Shown here: piece by piece, positions 23,926-43,130 of the stretch
Position numbering within the stretch: position 1 is the first letter of the stretch
Layout: every line of letters starts with the position of its first letter
Origin: a virus
Taxonomy: Duplodnaviria; Heunggongvirae; Uroviricota; Caudoviricetes
Length of the DNA: 64,000 nucleotides
Virus record (IMG/VR): IMGVR_UViG_3300008259_000020
Coordinates: 34,991 to 98,990 of that record
Strand: one strand, 5' to 3'
Notes under the pieces: model-generated
Database searches by the model: none
What the model saw: the letters and a program-made list of their open reading frames with translations, nothing else
Told to the model about the DNA's origin: nothing
Translations under genes and position numbers: made by a program

Positions 23926-24010
23926 TGGTGCCCACTGCCGGACTCGAACCGGCACTCCAGAGGAAGCAAATTTTAAGTCTGCCGCGGCTACCAATTTCAC
24001 CAAGCGGGCA
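23926..24010 (-). tRNA. tRNA-Leu (UAA), type II, CCA encoded
   Basis: Minus-strand cloverleaf: acceptor TGCCCGC/GTGGGCA, anticodon loop CTTAAAA, long variable arm, T-arm GCCGGTTCGAGTCCGGC, 3' CCA. Confidence 0.75.
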
Positions 24011-24012
24011 TT

Positions 24013-24408
24013 TTATTTTTTATACTTATCACCGGTAACTTGACCGGCACTCATTATAATAACTGGAATACGTTTAATATTCATTTCACGAAATGCAAAG
24101 TAACGATGATGTCCATCAATTACTTGATAAGTGTTTTCTCGTGGAATTCTTCTTACTAGTATTGGAGGTATCTTGCTGATATCTCGTTTTATCTGTTTTT
24201 TAATACTGTTTATATTTGCTCTAGCATCAACATCTTTAGTATCACCTTTACCGTCTCCTTCGAATCTAGATCGGATCTGATTCATAGGCATTACAACAAC
24301 TCGGTTGTATTCGTTTTTAAAATCAGTTACATTGGCACCGACAGTACTGTCACCAGTTTCAGGATCAACGTCTTTGGTTATTTTTGCTACTACTTCAAAT
24401 ATTTTCAT
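24013..24408 (-). CDS. ParB-like nuclease domain protein
   Basis: YQVIDGHHRYFAFRE is the ParB/Srx DGHHR box. Start set at MKIFEVV because the longer ORF would overlap tRNA-Leu(CAA). Confidence 0.55.
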   Translation of the reverse strand: MKIFEVVAKITKDVDPETGDSTVGANVTDFKNEYNRVVVMPMNQIRSRFEGDGKGDTKDVDARANINSIKKQIKRDISKIPPILVRRIPRENTYQVIDGHHRYFAFREMNIKRIPVIIMSAGQVTGDKYKK

Positions 24409-24423
24409 ATAGTATTTATTATT

Positions 24424-24507
24424 TGGTGCCCCAGGAGGGACTTGAACCCCCACGCCTTGCGGCAAAAGATTTTGAATCTTCCGTGGCTACCATTACACCA
24501 CTAGGGC
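24424..24507 (-). tRNA. tRNA-Leu (CAA), type II, CCA encoded
   Basis: Acceptor GCCCTAG/CTGGGGC, anticodon loop TTCAAAA, long variable arm, T-arm GGGGGTTCAAGTCCCTC. Confidence 0.7.
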
Positions 24508-24732
24508 AAAGTGTTGTTTAAAGGTGGCATCAGCACTTGTCTAGTACAAATTTATCGGGCCCAGCTGCGTTCAAACAACTATGTGTCTGTTTTTACACCT
24601 ACGTAAGGACTAGAATGTTTTTTATCCTTACTCCTTTAAACAATATAGTAATTAGCCTAGCAATAACCTATAGCATATCGCCGGGTCGCGGTCGACTCAC
24701 TTCCCTTACACCCCCAAGGTGCAGGCTAAAAT

Positions 24733-24808
24733 TGGTTGCGGTGGGCAGGACTCGAACCTGCGATTTACTGGTTATGAGCCAGTCGAGATGCCGCTTCTCT
24801 ACCCCGCA
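24733..24808 (-). tRNA. tRNA with CAU anticodon (Met, fMet or Ile2), imperfect acceptor/T junction
   Basis: D-arm GAGAAGCGGCATCTC, anticodon arm ACTGG-CTCATAA-CCAGT, T-arm GCAGGTTCGAGTCCTGC. The acceptor pairing has a mismatch or an extra C, so the boundaries are approximate. Confidence 0.5.
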
Positions 24809-24959
24809 ATATTCTGTTTACACATACACCCCAGCGCATTGCGTGTTTCAGTAAAGTTTGGGTGGCCGACCCTCATCTACGGGATGTATGTGTAAACAGA
24901 CTTAACTAGTTGAACAGTCTCGGAAATGGAGTAGTCGCCTACAGCCAAGTGGGTCGGAA

Positions 24960-26095
24960 CTCGAAAACTGTTCAACAAGTTAAGTTAAAAGATATGCCAA
25001 TCCTCTTATCACTTTCCACAAACGGTACCGGTTTTTGAACTAACATATCGTCAAACTTAATTTTTGCATAGGCTGAGATTATGCCTTGCTGTAGGAGCCT
25101 TTGACCATTACCGTTAGCCTTGCGAGCCACGTTCTGTCGTTATCCACAAGAGCCTTTTACGGTCATCTTGTATCTCCCAGTGGTGCCTTTTTTGGAGAGT
25201 GGCGTTTCTCTCGTCGCACGTTGCTACTCGTCCTTCTATCTTTCGTCTGCCTTGCGAGCAGTTCACAGTCGCTAAACCGTTACGCTATCTTTCCGAACAA
25301 CTACATCAGCCTTGCGAGCATCCGTAGACCACATTCTCTTGCGAGTGTGGCATTAACCACCTTTCACAACGTACCGGGACAGTCTTTCGCTTTTGTTTAT
25401 CAAAGAAGGGATTGAACCTTCGCCGATTCCGTTCAATGGAATTGCTCTACCGCTGAGCTATTTGCGAACCTACTTCGATGTGCTGTCCCAGTTGCTTCAC
25501 GTCTTGTTAGACGCAAAATACAACACACCGACTGTCTTTTGCCTTGCGGGCTACTCAACGTCTTTTTAAGTATCCGGGGCCTAACCCTTCCACTCTCAAG
25601 ATGCTAACTTGCCTTTGCTTGCGGGCTCAGACTAGTTAACTACCTGTTAACTTTCGGCATTCGTTAGTTTGGCTGAACAGTGTTTGGGCGCCAACCCTCT
25701 TATCGCTCACCGACCGGCTCTGCGACTATCCTTTCGGACACTATTCCTAACTTACTGCCTACCGCCTTTCTACGGACGGGAGTTGCTTTCGGTACCCGAG
25801 TCAACTCTAGTTCAGGCTTGCTTAGATGGACCATTGCTGGCGCAAGTTTATAGGAAACCTTGCTTTGGGTGCATTACTGCACTTACCCTTACGTGGACGC
25901 TAAGCCGCCCATCTTACTGTGTTTACAACGATATATTGTTTATCTTATCGTCAGTCGATAGACATAGTGGTTAGCATTGCCATTTCAACTTATTGTCAGT
26001 AGCGTGTGGCCCTGTTGTTTCGCTAGGAACCACCCTAGTTACTTGACAGTGCTACTACCCAATATACCTGTGTAAACACAGTGTTTACCAAATTA
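24960..26095. other. ~1.1-kb ORF-poor region inside the tRNA array carrying an iterated 11-13-mer (A)GCCTTGCG(A/G)GC(A)
   Basis: Copies at about 25111, 25251 and 25311 (identical AGCCTTGCGAGCA) and variants at 25341, 25533 and 25616. Only short plus-strand ORFs that look spurious. Confidence 0.4.
25400..25470 (-). ncRNA. degenerate tRNA-like element (D-, anticodon- and T-arms present, acceptor stem unpaired)
   Basis: TAGCTCAGCGGTAGAGC D-arm, ATTCC-ATTGAAC-GGAAT anticodon arm (UGA anticodon with a short variable arm) and GAAGGTTCAATCCCTTC T-arm, but the 5' and 3' ends pair at only 5 of 7 positions. Confidence 0.35.
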
Positions 26096-26200
26096 TCAAA
26101 GAGCGTGTAAACAACTTCTTGCTTACTTGTTTAATATAGTGCATGTTGCACCAAAGGTCAACCACTTTTTTATCTTTTTTTATTTTTTTTTGGAGCGGGT
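26096..26200. repeat. copy A of a ~100-bp dispersed repeat (TCAAAGAGCGTGTAA...TTTTTT...GGAGC)
   Basis: Shares an identical 15-mer TCAAAGAGCGTGTAA and a conserved downstream CTTGC-TTACT-TGTTTA-ATAG-G segment and T-runs with copy B at 28940-29037. Confidence 0.6.
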
Positions 26201-26266
26201 AACGGGATTCGAACCCGTGACCTGGTGCTTGGCAAGCAGCCGCTCTACCCCTGAGCTACACCCGCA
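26191..26266 (-). tRNA. tRNA-Gly (GCC), CCA encoded
   Basis: Acceptor GCGGGTG/TACCCGC, D-arm GCTCAGGGGTAGAGC, anticodon loop TTGCCAA (one C:C mismatch in the stem), T-arm ACGGGTTCGAATCCCGT. Confidence 0.65.
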
Positions 26267-26312
26267 TTTTAAGTTTGTAGTGATTATTAAATTCACTATG
26301 TAGACAATTTAA

Positions 26313-26388
26313 TGGTGCCGGTAGAGAGATTCGAACTCCCCACCTGATGATTACTAATCAACTGCTCTACCAAATGAGCTATACCGGC
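26313..26388 (-). tRNA. tRNA, anticodon ambiguous (loop TTAGTAA, formally AGU; self-complementary TGATTA/TAATCA)
   Basis: Acceptor GCCGGTA/TACCGGC, D-arm GCTCATTTGGTAGAGC, T-arm GGGAGTTCGAATCTCTC and CCA. The anticodon arm GTTGA-TTAGTAA-TCATC has a T:T mismatch. Confidence 0.55.
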
Positions 26389-42201: not shown

Positions 42202-42220
42202 ATTAATAGTTGTATGTTTG

Positions 42221-42664
42221 TTAGTTACACCACGACTGCTTTTTGTCGCCGTAGTATTCTCTAGCATAACCTTGTTCAATAAGCATCTGTGTTAGGCTCT
42301 TACCGTCGATAAGAACATCACCTAGCACTCTGCCGCCGAACTTGTCCCACTCATAAAATACAATTTGAGTAGTCTTGGCTTTTGCAACTAAATCTTTTGT
42401 AAATTTACTTGCAGCATCACCCATGTCGCCTTCTTTTTTACATTCTGCTCTGCCACCTTTTTCAGGTGTATCTACGCCCCATACACGAAGTGATAGTTTC
42501 TTCGGAAGTGGATCTAGCAAGAACTTTGCTTCAAATTCAACTGTATCACCATCTACTACACGTAGAATTTTTAAGTCGTGTGCTACACCAGTTGGCTTTT
42601 TTACTTCAGCAAATGCAGTGGATGCAGCAACAATCAGTGCTACAGTTAAAAGTATTTTTTTCAT
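42221..42664 (-). CDS. secreted staphylococcal-nuclease (SNase/thermonuclease) homolog
   Basis: Signal peptide MKKILLTVALIVAASTAFA. ILRVVDGDTVEF and RVWGVDTPEK match the SNase Ca-site and active-site boxes. Confidence 0.7.
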   Translation of the reverse strand: MKKILLTVALIVAASTAFAEVKKPTGVAHDLKILRVVDGDTVEFEAKFLLDPLPKKLSLRVWGVDTPEKGGRAECKKEGDMGDAASKFTKDLVAKAKTTQIVFYEWDKFGGRVLGDVLIDGKSLTQMLIEQGYAREYYGDKKQSWCN

Positions 42665-42709
42665 TATGTTCTCCTAAATACTAGAATATTTATAACAAAA
42701 AAACAATTA

Positions 42710-42785
42710 TGGTCCCCAGGGACGGGATTGAACCGCCGACACGCGGATTTTCAGTCCGCTGCTCTACCAACTGAGCTACCTGGGG
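42710..42785 (-). tRNA. tRNA-Phe (GAA)
   Basis: Acceptor CCCCAGG/CCTGGGG, anticodon arm GCGGA-CTGAAAA-TCCGC, T-arm GGCGGTTCAATCCCGTC, CCA. Confidence 0.85.
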
Positions 42786-42791
42786 ATATTT

Positions 42792-42876
42792 TGGTGGGAG
42801 AGGAGGGAATCGAACCCGTCCGTGCGTTGCCGCGATGGAGTTACAGTCCACTGCCTCACCTTGAGGCGTCTCTCCC
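42792..42876 (-). tRNA. tRNA-Tyr (GUA), type II (bacterial-type long variable arm)
   Basis: Acceptor GGGAGAG/CTCTCCC, loop CTGTAAC, long variable arm, T-loop TTCGATT, CCA. Confidence 0.8.
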
Positions 42877-42882
42877 TTATTT

Positions 42883-42959
42883 TGGTAGGACATACGGGTT
42901 TCGAACCCGTTTCTCCGCCTTGAAAGGGCGGCGACCTTCGCCAAGAAGTCCAATGTCCC
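42883..42959 (-). tRNA. tRNA-Glu (UUC)
   Basis: Acceptor GGGACAT/ATGTCCT, anticodon arm CCGCC-CTTTCAA-GGCGG, T-arm ACGGGTTCGAAACCCGT, CCA. Confidence 0.8.
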
Positions 42960-42965
42960 ATAGTT

Positions 42966-43040
42966 TGGTGATGTAGGCTGGATTCGAACCAGCAACCTAC
43001 GGCGTATGAGACCGTTGCACTACCGTTGTGCTACCACATC
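42966..43040 (-). tRNA. tRNA with CAU anticodon (Met or Ile2/lysidine)
   Basis: Acceptor GATGTGG/CTACATC, anticodon arm ACGGT-CTCATAC-GCCGT, T-arm GCTGGTTCGAATCCAGC, CCA. Confidence 0.8.
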
Positions 43041-43046
43041 ATTGTT

Positions 43047-43130
43047 TGGAGGTCGGTATGTGAATCGAACACATTACTTTGCAGTGCTATGGAGTTGCAG
43101 TCCATCCCCTTACCATCCGGGCCACCGACC
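43047..43130 (-). tRNA. tRNA-Cys (GCA)-like with an atypical 14-nt extra (variable) region
   Basis: Perfect acceptor GGTCGGT/ACCGACC, anticodon arm ATGGA-CTGCAAC-TCCAT, then AGCACTGCAAAGTA before T-arm ATGTGTTCGATTCACAT, CCA. A long variable arm is not expected for Cys. Confidence 0.55.

What the first reader, a model, noticed from the sequence alone, without database searches (positions are those of the whole stretch)
23926..43130. About 31 tRNA genes in two arrays with CCA encoded, including redundant Leu/Arg/Ser/Gly/Lys isoacceptors and several aberrant members
I could fold 31 cloverleaf tRNAs by hand, covering Leu x3, Arg x3, Ser x2, Gly x2, Lys x2, CAU x2 and 15 other amino-acid specificities, almost all with genomically encoded CCA and spacers of 5-10 nt. 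Aberrant members are: (i) a Cys(GCA)-like tRNA with a 14-nt extra region (43047-43130); (ii) a tRNA whose anticodon arm is the perfect palindrome TGATTA/TAATCA (26313-26388), giving an ambiguous AGU reading; and (iii) two tRNA-like relics lacking acceptor pairing (25400-25470 and 40737-40806). The relics could be decoys for tRNA-targeting nucleases, processing signals, or decaying duplicates.
Basis: seen in the sequence. Interest (0 to 1): 0.6.

Follow-up and report, generated by a model that had tools for sequence, protein, structure and literature searches.

The report
Phage tRNA island with GOLLD RNA
This is a bacteriophage tRNA island with 29 working-looking tRNA genes for all 20 amino acids, in which one supposed tRNA relic is a built-in domain of a known giant phage RNA (GOLLD) and the other belongs to a conserved family of non-decoding tRNA look-alikes.

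Summary
There are 31 tRNA-shaped elements on the minus strand in two arrays (28597-23926 and 43130-40552). Twenty-nine are canonical tRNAs: all 20 amino acids are covered and all 29 encode CCA.

- **Relic 25395-25468.** It lies inside a full-length GOLLD RNA (Rfam RF02032, 191.7 bits, gathering score 150), a conserved block of about 880 nt at 25927-25046. It is the tRNA-like insert of the GOLLD linker, a feature already in the literature. Its D, anticodon and T arms covary, its anticodon loop drifts, it has no CCA, and GOLLD helices close it instead of a free acceptor end.
- **Relic 40735-40804.** It does have an acceptor stem. It belongs to a conserved family of tRNA-Glu-like elements with a 4-7 nt non-anticodon loop, no CCA and a conserved leader.
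- **Cys(GCA).** It is a real, conserved tRNA-Cys lineage (U73, CCA) with an expanded variable arm.
- **Thr(AGU).** It is an ordinary, recurrent tRNA.

A T4-type tRNA repair cassette (polynucleotide kinase, phosphatase and Rnl1 ligase) lies between the arrays.

"Decaying duplicates" is refuted. "Decoy" and "processing signal" remain untested. Overall this is a new member of known kinds; the second tRNA-like family may be undescribed.

The parts
43047..43130 (-). tRNA-Cys(GCA) with a 14-nt variable arm (3-bp stem plus GCAA loop), U73, CCA
   Evidence: (45.4 bits)
42966..43040 (-). tRNA(CAU), Met or Ile2 type, CCA
42883..42959 (-). tRNA-Glu(UUC), CCA
42792..42876 (-). tRNA-Tyr(GUA), class II, A73, CCA, bulged C in the T stem; found by Rfam only
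   Evidence: (33.8 bits)
42710..42785 (-). tRNA-Phe(GAA), CCA
42221..42664 (-). protein gene inside array 2: staphylococcal-nuclease-like, with a signal-peptide-like N terminus
42124..42201 (-). tRNA-Lys(CUU), CCA
41989..42064 (-). tRNA-Lys(UUU), CCA
41813..41887 (-). tRNA-Ile(GAU), CCA
41731..41805 (-). tRNA-His(GUG) without G-1, with G1-U72 and A73 (alphaproteobacterial type), CCA
   Evidence: (41.3 bits); the type is described in PMC5389517
41649..41724 (-). tRNA-Arg(ACG), CCA
41082..41600 (-). protein gene inside array 2: CHAP-domain, lysozyme-like
40923..40951 (-). sigma-70-like promoter TTGACA-17-TATAGT (11 of 12) ahead of the leader and the tRNA-like element
40805..40916 (-). conserved leader with a hairpin GGUGG-CGGCAA-CCACC
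40735..40804 (-). tRNA-like element 2: tRNA-Glu-like D arm, 5-bp stem with 5-nt loop GUGGA in place of the anticodon arm, normal T arm, 6 of 7 acceptor pairs, no CCA
   Evidence: (37.5 bits)
40640..40715 (-). tRNA-Arg(UCU), CCA
40552..40627 (-). tRNA-Arg(UCG), CCA
38240..38701 (-). polynucleotide kinase-phosphatase, phosphatase part (context: RNA repair)
   Evidence: (HAD_PNKP, 108.9 bits)
37226..37744 (-). P-loop kinase, polynucleotide-kinase-like (context: RNA repair)
36152..37006 (-). T4 Rnl1-like RNA ligase (context: tRNA repair)
   Evidence: T4 Rnl1, E 1e-16; phrog_562, E 8e-46
35791..36213 (-). cyclic-phosphate-processing receiver domain protein (context: RNA repair)
28978..29006 (-). 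sigma-70-like promoter TTGACA-17-TATGTT upstream of array 1
28522..28597 (-). tRNA-Asn(GUU), CCA
28427..28514 (-). tRNA-Ser(GCU), class II, CCA
28345..28420 (-). tRNA-Ala(UGC), CCA
28047..28121 (-). tRNA-Val(UAC), CCA
27965..28040 (-). tRNA-Trp(CCA), CCA
27870..27957 (-). tRNA-Ser(UGA), class II, CCA
27604..27679 (-). tRNA-Asp(GUC), CCA
27523..27596 (-). tRNA-Gly(UCC), CCA
27437..27512 (-). tRNA-Thr(UGU), CCA
27350..27431 (-). tRNA-Leu(UAG), CCA
27268..27343 (-). tRNA-Gln(UUG), CCA
27185..27261 (-). tRNA-Pro(UGG), CCA
26379..27092 (-). protein gene inside array 1 (DUF6071); its stop codon lies in the first 10 nt of tRNA-Thr(AGU)
26313..26388 (-). tRNA-Thr(AGU), normal geometry, CCA
   Evidence: (63.9 bits)
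26191..26265 (-). tRNA-Gly(GCC), CCA
26133..26161 (-). sigma-70-like promoter TTGACC-17-TATATT upstream of GOLLD
25046..25927 (-). GOLLD RNA gene, whole conserved block (about 880 nt): 5' domain 25927-25532, Rfam-matched 3' domain 25531-25070
   Evidence: (52.5 bits)
24813..24900 (-). 88-nt hairpin with a stem of about 20 bp, between GOLLD and tRNA(CAU)
24733..24808 (-). tRNA(CAU), initiator-like A11-U24, irregular acceptor stem, CCA
   Evidence: (53.7 bits)
24424..24507 (-). tRNA-Leu(CAA), CCA
24013..24408 (-). protein gene inside array 1: ParB N-terminal-domain protein (ATG at 24408 read from the sequence)
23926..24009 (-). tRNA-Leu(UAA), CCA
23889..23912 (-). G+C-rich hairpin followed by a U run on the minus strand: likely terminator of array 1

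Best explanation
The region is the tRNA island of a large tailed bacteriophage. Its closest cultured relatives by protein are Methylophilales phage Melnitz and Pelagibacter phage HTVC008M. The tRNA-His type points to an alphaproteobacterial host.

The island holds 29 canonical tRNA genes in short-spaced sub-operons driven by sigma-70-like promoters. They cover all 20 amino acids, match the phage's A/U-rich codon usage, and each carries its own CCA. The most likely role is to keep phage translation running independently of the host tRNA pool (inferred). A T4-type tRNA repair cassette between the two arrays (polynucleotide kinase, phosphatase, Rnl1 ligase) suggests the phage also repairs tRNAs cut by host anticodon nucleases (inferred from homology).

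Embedded in array 1 is a complete GOLLD RNA gene of about 880 nt. Published cryo-EM shows that GOLLD RNAs assemble into closed RNA-only cages with the variable linker facing the interior. It keeps D, anticodon and T arms, has no free acceptor end and no CCA, and its anticodon loop is free to drift. It is therefore a structural or ligand-binding module of GOLLD, not a decoding tRNA (identity shown; function inferred).

The second relic is a member of a conserved family derived from tRNA-Glu. It has a full acceptor stem and normal D and T arms, but a 4-7 nt non-anticodon loop and no CCA. It sits behind a promoter and a conserved leader at the head of a tRNA sub-operon. Most likely it is cut out by RNase P and 3' processing as a small stable tRNA-shaped RNA that cannot decode (inferred).

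Cys(GCA) and Thr(AGU) are functional, conserved phage tRNAs.
For: **tRNAs.** ARAGORN finds 30 and Rfam 31 hits above the gathering score. 29 of 29 end in CCA, against 0 of 2 for the tRNA-like elements. Anticodons pair by Watson-Crick with the top codons, for example ACA 42% and ACU 40% of Thr; GC3 is 32%.

**Phage context.** Tail fibre, DNA ligase and endonuclease families. Best protein matches are Melnitz at 48.6% and HTVC008M at 34%.

**Repair cassette.** HAD_PNKP at 108.9 bits, AAA_33 kinase and the cREC_REC domain. The ligase matches T4 Rnl1 in the PDB (E 1e-16) and phrog_562 (E 8e-46).

**GOLLD.**
- RF02032 scores 191.7 bits against a gathering score of 150, over model positions 1-416 of 416.
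- At least 8 independent contigs align to 25927/25914-25046 at 76-80% identity.
- The consensus fold of 10 sequences has 228 pairs, 113 of them with compensatory changes, and includes the 5' domain.

**Linker tRNA-like domain.**
- It is present in all 6 GOLLDs first compared, and in 21 of 74 loci found through a 3' GOLLD motif, at a fixed 233-266 nt upstream of that motif.
- D, anticodon and T stems are 92-100% paired with compensatory changes; the acceptor stem is only 47% paired.
- There are 11 different 'anticodons', including 4-base and 2-base calls, and no CCA.
- The outer closing helix covaries at 4 of 8 pairs.
- The inner helix UUCGC/GCGAA switches to UUGCG/CGCAA in BL57 and Phosso.

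**Literature.** GOLLD lies in phage tRNA islands, the linker faces inward, and the linker sometimes holds a tRNA (PMC12286853; PMC12990946). A pseudo-tRNA inside a Mycobacterium GOLLD was not detected as a separate RNA (PMC6582537).

**Second tRNA-like family.**
- 8 sequences are 95.8% paired, 13 of 21 pairs have compensatory changes, and the acceptor stem is 89% paired.
- Loops are 5-7 nt in those eight; none has CCA.
- Two further members come from the covariance model: L091 at 69.7 bits, and the cultured cyanophage BUCT-ZZ01 at 67.4 bits with a 4-nt loop.
- ARAGORN assigns the family six different isotypes.
- The leader hairpin is conserved and its stem covaries.
Against: No expression or processing data exist for this phage, so everything about function is inferred.

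GOLLD's biological role is unknown even in the literature. Cage formation by this particular sequence is untested.

The 30% frequency of linker tRNA-like domains comes from one sequence-motif subfamily and from ARAGORN only.

The second family was first collected with an exact 17-nt D-arm pattern. Its apparent D-arm invariance is therefore partly built into the search. Only two members (L091, BUCT-ZZ01) were found without that pattern.

Sample sizes for covariation are small (6-10 sequences).

The host is not identified directly.

A real tRNA role for the GOLLD insert in some lineages cannot be excluded: several carry a canonical CUUCUAA Arg(UCU) loop.
Confidence: 0.85

Rival explanations
1. 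The two CCA-less elements are decaying duplicates (pseudogenes) of phage tRNAs with no function of their own.
For: Both lack CCA while all 29 neighbours have it. Their anticodon loops are abnormal or do not fit the body. The first is a class I body with a Ser anticodon. The second has a 5-nt loop. Rfam scores are below the array median.
Against: Both are conserved in position and fold across phages whose neighbouring proteins are only 62-75% identical or less. Compensatory changes keep the stems paired: 92-100% for the three arms of the first element, and 95.8% overall with 13 of 21 covarying pairs for the second. The first is at a fixed distance inside GOLLD in 21 loci. The second has a conserved leader and trailer.
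Confidence: 0.04
2. The tRNA-like elements are decoys that soak up host tRNA-targeting nucleases or other tRNA-binding defence proteins. In the GOLLD case, 10-14 copies would be displayed inside the cage.
For: The phage carries a T4-type tRNA repair cassette, so it probably faces anticodon nucleases. Both elements keep the L-shape-determining D and T loops. Linker inserts in other GOLLDs often carry UCU, UUU, UUG or UUC loops. From general knowledge, these are the anticodons of tRNAs that known anticodon nucleases cut.
Against: A decoy for an anticodon nuclease should conserve the target anticodon loop. Here the loops are the least conserved part: 11 variants in the GOLLD inserts and 4-7 nt non-anticodon loops in the second family. 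According to the cryo-EM work the linker faces the closed interior, which limits access. There is no experimental link.
Confidence: 0.12
3. The elements are processing signals. RNase P and RNase Z cut at them to separate transcripts, for example splitting GOLLD into 5' and 3' halves or trimming the leader off the Arg tRNA operon. The excised piece would have no role of its own.
For: The second element has a good covarying acceptor stem and T arm, which are the features RNase P reads. It sits between a 110-nt leader and tRNA-Arg(UCU), with a conserved 19-nt trailer. In T4, the stable RNA rnaC next to tRNA-Arg also ends in a T arm with acceptor-like pairing.
Against: For GOLLD, the acceptor stem is the one arm that is not kept (47% paired). 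The insert is instead closed by covarying GOLLD helices, and a Mycobacterium GOLLD pseudo-tRNA was not seen as a separate RNA. For the second element, a pure processing signal would not need a conserved D arm, a conserved stem-loop in the anticodon position or a structured leader.
Confidence: 0.3
4. The long-arm tRNA(GCA) is not a cysteine tRNA but a recoding tRNA. It would be charged with Ser or Tyr because of its class II arm, and would insert that residue at Cys codons.
For: It shares class II architecture and a 3-bp/GNRA variable arm with the neighbouring tRNA-Tyr. Mukai et al. note that a long V-arm with G73 or U73 can direct serylation (PMC5389517). It is the only GCA tRNA in the window.
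Against: U73 and GCA are the main CysRS identity elements, and both are invariant in all 7 long-arm variants. L054's long-arm tRNA is plainly homologous to L035's ordinary 78-nt tRNA-Cys. The arm is much shorter than those of the window's own tRNA-Ser genes, which have 5-6 bp stems. A73 and U35, which matter for TyrRS by general knowledge, are absent.
Confidence: 0.07

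Closest known systems
GOLLD RNA (Rfam RF02032; Weinberg et al. 2009; cryo-EM by Kretsch et al. 2025, PMC12286853)
   Same: Full-length match to the Rfam 3' domain model above the gathering score. A structured, more variable 5' domain of about 400 nt lies upstream. It sits in a phage tRNA island and has a variable linker carrying a tRNA-shaped insert.
   Different: This copy comes from an uncultured Melnitz/HTVC008M-like phage. 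Its linker is closed by two helices supported by covariation, and the insert has no usable acceptor end. Oligomer state is unknown.
tRNA or pseudo-tRNA embedded in GOLLD J13/15 of Mycobacterium/Mycolicibacterium tRNA arrays (PMC6582537; PMC12990946)
   Same: A tRNA-shaped insert at the same place in GOLLD. In one case it is annotated as a pseudo-tRNA and was not detected as a separate RNA.
   Different: Those inserts are reported as tRNA-Phe or as a pseudo-tRNA. Here the loop reads UGA on a class I body, and close relatives carry other loops, including 8-nt ones.
Phage T4 tRNA cluster with stable RNAs rnaC/rnaD, and the T4 Pnkp/Rnl1 tRNA repair pathway
   Same: A tRNA cluster in a T4-like phage that also encodes small non-tRNA RNAs next to tRNA-Arg(UCU). 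T4 rnaC ends in a T arm with acceptor-like pairing. Homologues of Rnl1 and polynucleotide kinase-phosphatase are present.
   Different: There is no detectable sequence homology between the second tRNA-like element plus leader and rnaC/rnaD. The element lies upstream, not downstream, of tRNA-Arg. Pnkp is split into separate kinase and phosphatase genes. There are 29 tRNAs against 8 in T4.
selC* tRNA-Cys and allo-tRNAs (Mukai et al. 2017, PMC5389517)
   Same: A tRNA with a GCA anticodon, U73 and a long variable arm.
   Different: The branch is standard 7/5, not 8/4 or 9/3. In L054 position 8 is U opposite C65, so an 8-bp acceptor is not conserved. The arm is short and Tyr-like. There is no selenocysteine machinery nearby, and the setting is phage rather than anaerobic bacteria.

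Membership tests
GOLLD RNA (RF02032) | Covariance-model score at or above Rfam's gathering score over the whole model | tested here: met
   191.7 bits against 150, model positions 1-416 of 416, E 1.8e-52
GOLLD RNA (RF02032) | Large size (many members over 800 nt), with a conserved 3' domain and a less conserved, structured 5' domain | tested here: met
   Conserved block 25927-25046 (about 880 nt) in at least 8 contigs. 228 consensus pairs, 113 of them compensatory, including columns 27-395 of the 5' domain.
GOLLD RNA (RF02032) | Encoded in a phage or prophage, usually next to tRNA genes | tested here: met
   Phage proteins in the window; tRNAs lie on both sides
GOLLD RNA (RF02032) | Variable linker between the first 3'-domain hairpin and the core, sometimes holding a tRNA | tested here: met
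   The tRNA model hit at 25397-25467 falls in the unpaired model stretch at about positions 60-140. The same is seen in 5 relatives and in 21 of 74 loci.
GOLLD RNA (RF02032) | Self-assembly into a closed homo-oligomeric cage (10-14 copies) | not testable with these tools
   Known only from cryo-EM of other members
Canonical decoding tRNA (applied to 25395-25468) | 7-bp acceptor stem with a free 3' end carrying, or able to receive, CCA | tested here: not met
   5 of 7 pairs here and 47% paired across 6 homologues. No CCA here or in 15 distinct homologues, against 29 of 29 in the real tRNAs. The 3' side runs on into the conserved GOLLD core.
Canonical decoding tRNA (applied to 25395-25468) | Conserved 7-nt anticodon loop whose anticodon fits the identity elements of the body | tested here: not met
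   A UGA (Ser) anticodon on a class I body. Homologues show 11 different 'anticodons' and loops of 8 nt.
Canonical decoding tRNA (applied to 40735-40804) | 7-nt anticodon loop with U33 | tested here: not met
   5-nt loop GUGGA on a 5-bp stem. Family loops are 4-7 nt, usually without U33.
Canonical decoding tRNA (applied to 40735-40804) | Encoded CCA, as in every other tRNA of this phage | tested here: not met
   It ends in ...CACUUU. None of the 10 family members has CCA.
Canonical decoding tRNA (applied to 40735-40804) | Cloverleaf with acceptor, D and T arms | tested here: met
   95.8% of cells paired; the acceptor stem is 89% paired and all 7 of its pairs covary
tRNA-Cys (applied to 43047-43130) | GCA anticodon and U73 discriminator (the main CysRS identity elements per PMC5389517), with a CCA end | tested here: met
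   All three are present here and in 7 distinct long-arm relatives
tRNA-Cys (applied to 43047-43130) | Class I body with a short (4-5 nt) variable loop | tested here: not met
   14-nt variable region with a 3-bp stem and GCAA loop. It is related to a short-loop tRNA-Cys in L035.
selC* tRNA-Cys / allo-tRNA | 8/4 or 9/3 acceptor/T-stem branch | tested here: not met
   The 7/5 reading fits all variants; the 8/4 reading fails in L054 (U8 opposite C65)
T4-type tRNA repair (Pnkp + Rnl1) | Homologues of T4 RNA ligase 1 and of both polynucleotide kinase-phosphatase activities | tested here: met
   T4 Rnl1 in the PDB, E 1e-16; phrog_562, phrog_505 and phrog_415; HAD_PNKP and AAA_33. Activity on tRNA is not testable here.

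The most novel reading that the evidence does not exclude
The 40735-40804 element and its roughly 110-nt leader may define a previously undescribed family of phage non-coding RNA. It would be a tRNA-Glu-derived, CCA-less tRNA mimic with a 4-7 nt loop in place of the anticodon loop. It is found at the head of tRNA sub-operons in aquatic T4-like phages, including the cultured cyanophage BUCT-ZZ01, where it is unannotated. It would have a function of its own, for example titrating a tRNA-binding host factor or regulating processing of the tRNA operon.

A second reading is not excluded. In this GOLLD subfamily the linker may be a folded tRNA-shaped domain fixed by two helices, which would make the cage interior a display of 10-14 tRNA bodies for a specific ligand.
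Probability: 0.3. Interest if true: 0.6.

Novelty: new member of a known kind. Interest (0 to 1): 0.42.

Why it matters
Phage tRNA islands, GOLLD RNAs and tRNA inserts in the GOLLD linker are all described, so the main result corrects an interpretation rather than reporting a discovery.

Three points are still useful.
- **GOLLD insert.** The comparative data show selection on the tRNA body (three arms and two closing helices) but not on the anticodon or acceptor end. That constrains hypotheses about what the inside of the GOLLD cage does.
- **Second tRNA-like family.** tRNA finders routinely miscall it as six different isotypes, which inflates and distorts phage tRNA inventories. It may be a new small RNA class.
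- **Long-arm tRNA-Cys.** A conserved long-arm tRNA-Cys in phages is an unusual departure from class I architecture and deserves a charging assay.

Tried and rejected
- Searching IMG/VR with the DUF6071 protein (26379-27092) found no relative.
- Megablast of 29000-40500 against cultured phages found nothing.
- The CHAP protein brought in 80 loci, but all are distant (at most 60% identity). None carries a GOLLD.
- blastn of the long-arm tRNA-Cys against cultured phages found no match.
- I considered that Cys(GCA) arose from the neighbouring tRNA-Tyr by a U35-to-C change. I rejected this because a short-loop tRNA-Cys (L035) is the clear homologue of a long-arm one (L054), and U73 is invariant.
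- I considered an 8/4 selC*-like fold and rejected it.
- I tested whether the second tRNA-like element plus leader is homologous to T4 rnaC/rnaD. nhmmer finds only generic T-loop matches, so this is an analogy only.
- Permissive Rfam searches of both arrays gave no further family above noise.
- The long spacers 28122-28344 and 27680-27869 have no match in relatives and were left unexplained.
- Weinberg 2009 and Morgado 2020 are not held in the library. What they say is taken from papers that cite them.

Full report

Yes. ARAGORN tRNA genes, all on the minus strand. Eighteen lie between 23926 and 28597 and twelve between 40552 and 43130. Rfam's tRNA model gives 31 matches above its gathering score. 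The extra one, 42792-42876, is a class II tRNA-Tyr(GUA) with A73 and CCA. A bulged C in its T stem explains why ARAGORN misses it.

Reading every gene end shows that 29 of the 31 end in N73-CCA. The 29 cover all 20 amino acids. Spacers of 5-12 nt hold inside sub-clusters. The arrays are also interrupted by four protein genes, by promoter-like sites and by long non-coding stretches.

**2. Context**

The window is phage DNA.
- It encodes tail-fibre, endonuclease and DNA-ligase families.
- A 680-aa protein has its best cultured matches in Methylophilales phage Melnitz (48.6% identity) and Pelagibacter phage HTVC008M (34%).
- There is no near-identical cultured phage.

Between the two arrays lies an RNA repair cassette:
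- a PNKP-type phosphatase at 38240-38701;
- a P-loop polynucleotide-kinase-like protein at 37226-37744;
- a T4 Rnl1-like ligase at 36152-37006, matching T4 Rnl1 structures at E 1e-16 and phrog_562 at E 8e-46;
- a cyclic-phosphate-processing receiver-domain protein at 35791-36213.

Phage coding sequences have a GC3 of 32%. The tRNA anticodons pair directly with the commonest codons.

**3. The first 'relic' is part of a GOLLD RNA**

Rfam reports a complete GOLLD match (RF02032) at 25070-25531 on the minus strand. It scores 191.7 bits against a gathering score of 150, with E 1.8e-52. The tRNA-like hit at 25397-25467 sits in the model's unpaired linker.

The Rfam model covers only the conserved 3' domain. 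Upstream, two close relatives (L005 at 92% and L004 at 87% identity) and at least eight further IMG/VR contigs (76-80%) align continuously to 25927/25914-25046. A consensus fold of ten such sequences has 228 pairs, 113 with compensatory changes, spread over the 5' domain too. The gene is therefore about 880 nt. It is preceded by a TTGACC-17-TATATT promoter-like site at 26161-26133.

This fits published descriptions. GOLLD is over 800 nt, with a conserved 3' half and a variable 5' half, and is encoded in phages near tRNA islands. It forms closed homo-oligomeric cages whose variable linker points inward, and the linker sometimes holds a tRNA (PMC12286853; PMC12990946; PMC6582537).

**4. What the linker insert is**

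All six GOLLDs compared first carry a tRNA-model hit at the same place. These are the window, L004, L005, and phages DSS3_MAL1, BL57 and Phosso. That set is biased, because it was found by similarity that included the insert.

A less biased set of 74 IMG/VR loci was collected with a motif from the far 3' end of GOLLD. Of these, 21 have an ARAGORN-detectable insert, always 233-266 nt upstream of the motif.

Across homologues the three arms are maintained and the rest is not:
- The D, anticodon and T stems are 92-100% paired with compensatory changes; the nominal acceptor stem is 47% paired.
- The 'anticodons' are ttt, ttg, tga, tct, gct, tat, ttc, ata, cta and tag, plus 4-base and 2-base calls. 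CUUCUAA (Arg UCU) is the commonest loop.
- None has CCA. The 3' side runs straight into the conserved AAAAGCGAAAGACU core.

The consensus fold closes the region with two helices instead of an acceptor stem:
- The outer helix CUGGGACAG/CUGUCCCGG has compensatory changes at 4 of its 8 pairs, with further variants in L177, L181, MAL1 and BL57.
- The inner helix UUCGC/GCGAA becomes UUGCG/CGCAA in BL57 and Phosso (read from the sequences).

My inference is that a tRNA, probably Arg(UCU), was captured in the linker. It has since been kept as a folded three-arm body fixed into GOLLD, with no selection for decoding or aminoacylation. That it lies inside the cage follows from the published structures and is not tested here.

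**5. The second 'relic'**

Element 40804-40735 reads as follows:
- acceptor 5' strand GUGUGUA, then UC;
- D arm GUC-UAGAGGAUAG-GAC, as in tRNA-Glu;
- stem CCGGC, loop GUGGA, stem GUCGG;
- variable region AGAC;
- T arm AAGGG-UUCGAGU-CCCUU;
- acceptor 3' strand UGCACUU, then U, with no CCA.

The acceptor stem has 6 of 7 pairs, so 'lacking acceptor pairing' is wrong.

A search of IMG/VR with its D-arm 17-mer found seven more distinct members. The eight sequences are 95.8% paired, with 13 of 21 pairs covarying, including all seven acceptor pairs. Their loops are GUGGA, GUGCA, GUAAA, GUGAA, ACUGAC, GAGCGAA and CUUGAAA, and none has CCA.

D-arm identity was required by that search, so its invariance proves nothing. 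However, a covariance model built from these eight found two members with different D loops:
- L091 at 69.7 bits, with loop UAGAGGU;
- an unannotated site in the cultured Synechococcus phage BUCT-ZZ01 at 67.4 bits, with a 4-nt loop.

ARAGORN names the members Pro, Ala, Leu, Ser, Arg or nothing.

In the window the element follows a near-consensus promoter-like site (TTGACA-17-TATAGT, 40951-40923) and a leader. The leader's hairpin has a CGGCAA loop and a stem that covaries: GGUGG/CCACC, GGUGA/UCACC, GGUAG/CUACC and GGCAG/CUGCC. The element precedes tRNA-Arg(UCU) by a conserved 19-nt trailer.

The best reading is a tRNA-Glu-derived mimic that is processed like a tRNA but cannot decode. Its function is unknown. 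T4's stable RNA rnaC, next to tRNA-Arg, is a functional analogy: it ends in a T arm with acceptor-like pairing. No sequence homology to it is detectable.

**6. Cys(GCA) and Thr(AGU)**

The 84-nt tRNA(GCA) has a 7/5 branch, a 3-bp D stem, a variable arm ACU-GCAA-AGU, U73 and CCA.
- It is 98.9% identical in L004, which also has an ordinary tRNA-Cys next to it.
- Seven distinct long-arm versions exist in the fetched loci, all with GCA, U73 and CCA.
- L093 shows the same order, Cys-Met-Glu-Tyr.
- L054's long-arm tRNA is clearly homologous to L035's 78-nt tRNA-Cys. The arm is therefore an expansion within a Cys lineage, not a mutated Tyr.
- It differs from selC* and allo-tRNAs, which have 8/4 or 9/3 branches (PMC5389517).

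tRNA-Thr(AGU) scores 63.9 bits, and has a normal UUAGUAA loop and the G1-C72/C2-G71 acceptor seen in the window's other tRNA-Thr. Five contigs carry such a tRNA, one with the non-palindromic loop CUAGUAA. ACU makes up 40% of Thr codons in the phage genes. The palindrome is just U32-A38 and U33-A37 complementarity.

**7. Verdict**

The arrays are a normal, if large, phage tRNA island.
- The 'decaying duplicates' idea is refuted for both elements.
- The decoy and processing-signal ideas remain possible but untested. The decoy idea fits poorly with the freely varying loops.
- The GOLLD identification places the most striking 'relic' in a known family, so the finding as a whole is a new member of known kinds.
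- The second tRNA-like family and the long-arm tRNA-Cys are the parts most likely to be new to specialists.

Noticed in passing
window 24813-24900 (-): An 88-nt hairpin with a near-perfect stem of about 20 bp (-40 kcal/mol, z -5.3) lies between the GOLLD 3' end and tRNA(CAU). It is 96.6% identical to a site in L035, a phage contig whose CHAP protein is only about 47% identical to the window's, and 89% identical to a site in L093. It could be an RNase III site or a small mobile element.
   Followed up: partly
window 32900-33448, 35791-38701, 39223-40307 (-): An RNA repair cassette lies between the two tRNA arrays. It holds a split polynucleotide kinase and phosphatase, a T4 Rnl1-like ligase, a cyclic-phosphate-processing receiver-domain protein and two metallophosphoesterases. 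There is also a weak match to the PTH2 peptidyl-tRNA hydrolase family.
   Followed up: partly
window 41731-41805 (-): tRNA-His lacks G-1 and has G1-U72 and A73. This is the form characteristic of one group of Alphaproteobacteria, which hints at the host. The closest cultured phages infect OM43 (Methylophilales) and SAR11 (Pelagibacter).
   Followed up: partly
window 24733-24808 (-): This tRNA(CAU) has the initiator-like A11-U24 pair. Its acceptor stem needs a bulged A or has one mismatch, and it has only two G-C pairs at the bottom of the anticodon stem. Which of the two CAU tRNAs is initiator, elongator or Ile2 was not resolved.
   Followed up: no
window 26379-26388: The stop codon of the DUF6071 gene (26379-27092) lies inside the first 10 nt of tRNA-Thr(AGU). 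Gene and tRNA therefore overlap on the same strand.
   Followed up: no
window 28122-28344 and 27680-27869 (-): Two spacers of 223 and 190 nt inside array 1 have no ORF, no Rfam match and no similarity in the relatives examined.
   Followed up: partly
window 24890, 26070, 26105, 28085, 43630, 50823 (- strand motif): The octamer GTTTACAC recurs on the minus strand, mostly in non-coding stretches of the tRNA arrays, including two copies just upstream of GOLLD. No significance test was done.
   Followed up: no
L035 7410-7500, L080 3669-3759, L081 5842-5932, L082 5841-5931, L041 1938-2031, L103 3206-3298: Related phage contigs carry 91-94-nt 'tRNA-Ile(UAU)' calls with the anticodon at position 31-33. 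These look like another non-standard, long-arm tRNA type.
   Followed up: no
L001 3546-3980 (DSS3_MAL1) and L002 2042-2481 (BL57): In two cultured alphaproteobacterial phages a permuted tmRNA gene lies directly beside GOLLD. No tmRNA was found in this window.
   Followed up: no
L182 1494-1562 (Synechococcus phage BUCT-ZZ01, ON615601, about 125434-125502): An unannotated member of the second tRNA-like family (67.4 bits with model R1) sits between protein genes of a cultured cyanophage. It has a 4-nt loop, no CCA and an upstream hairpin with the same CGGCAA loop.
   Followed up: partly
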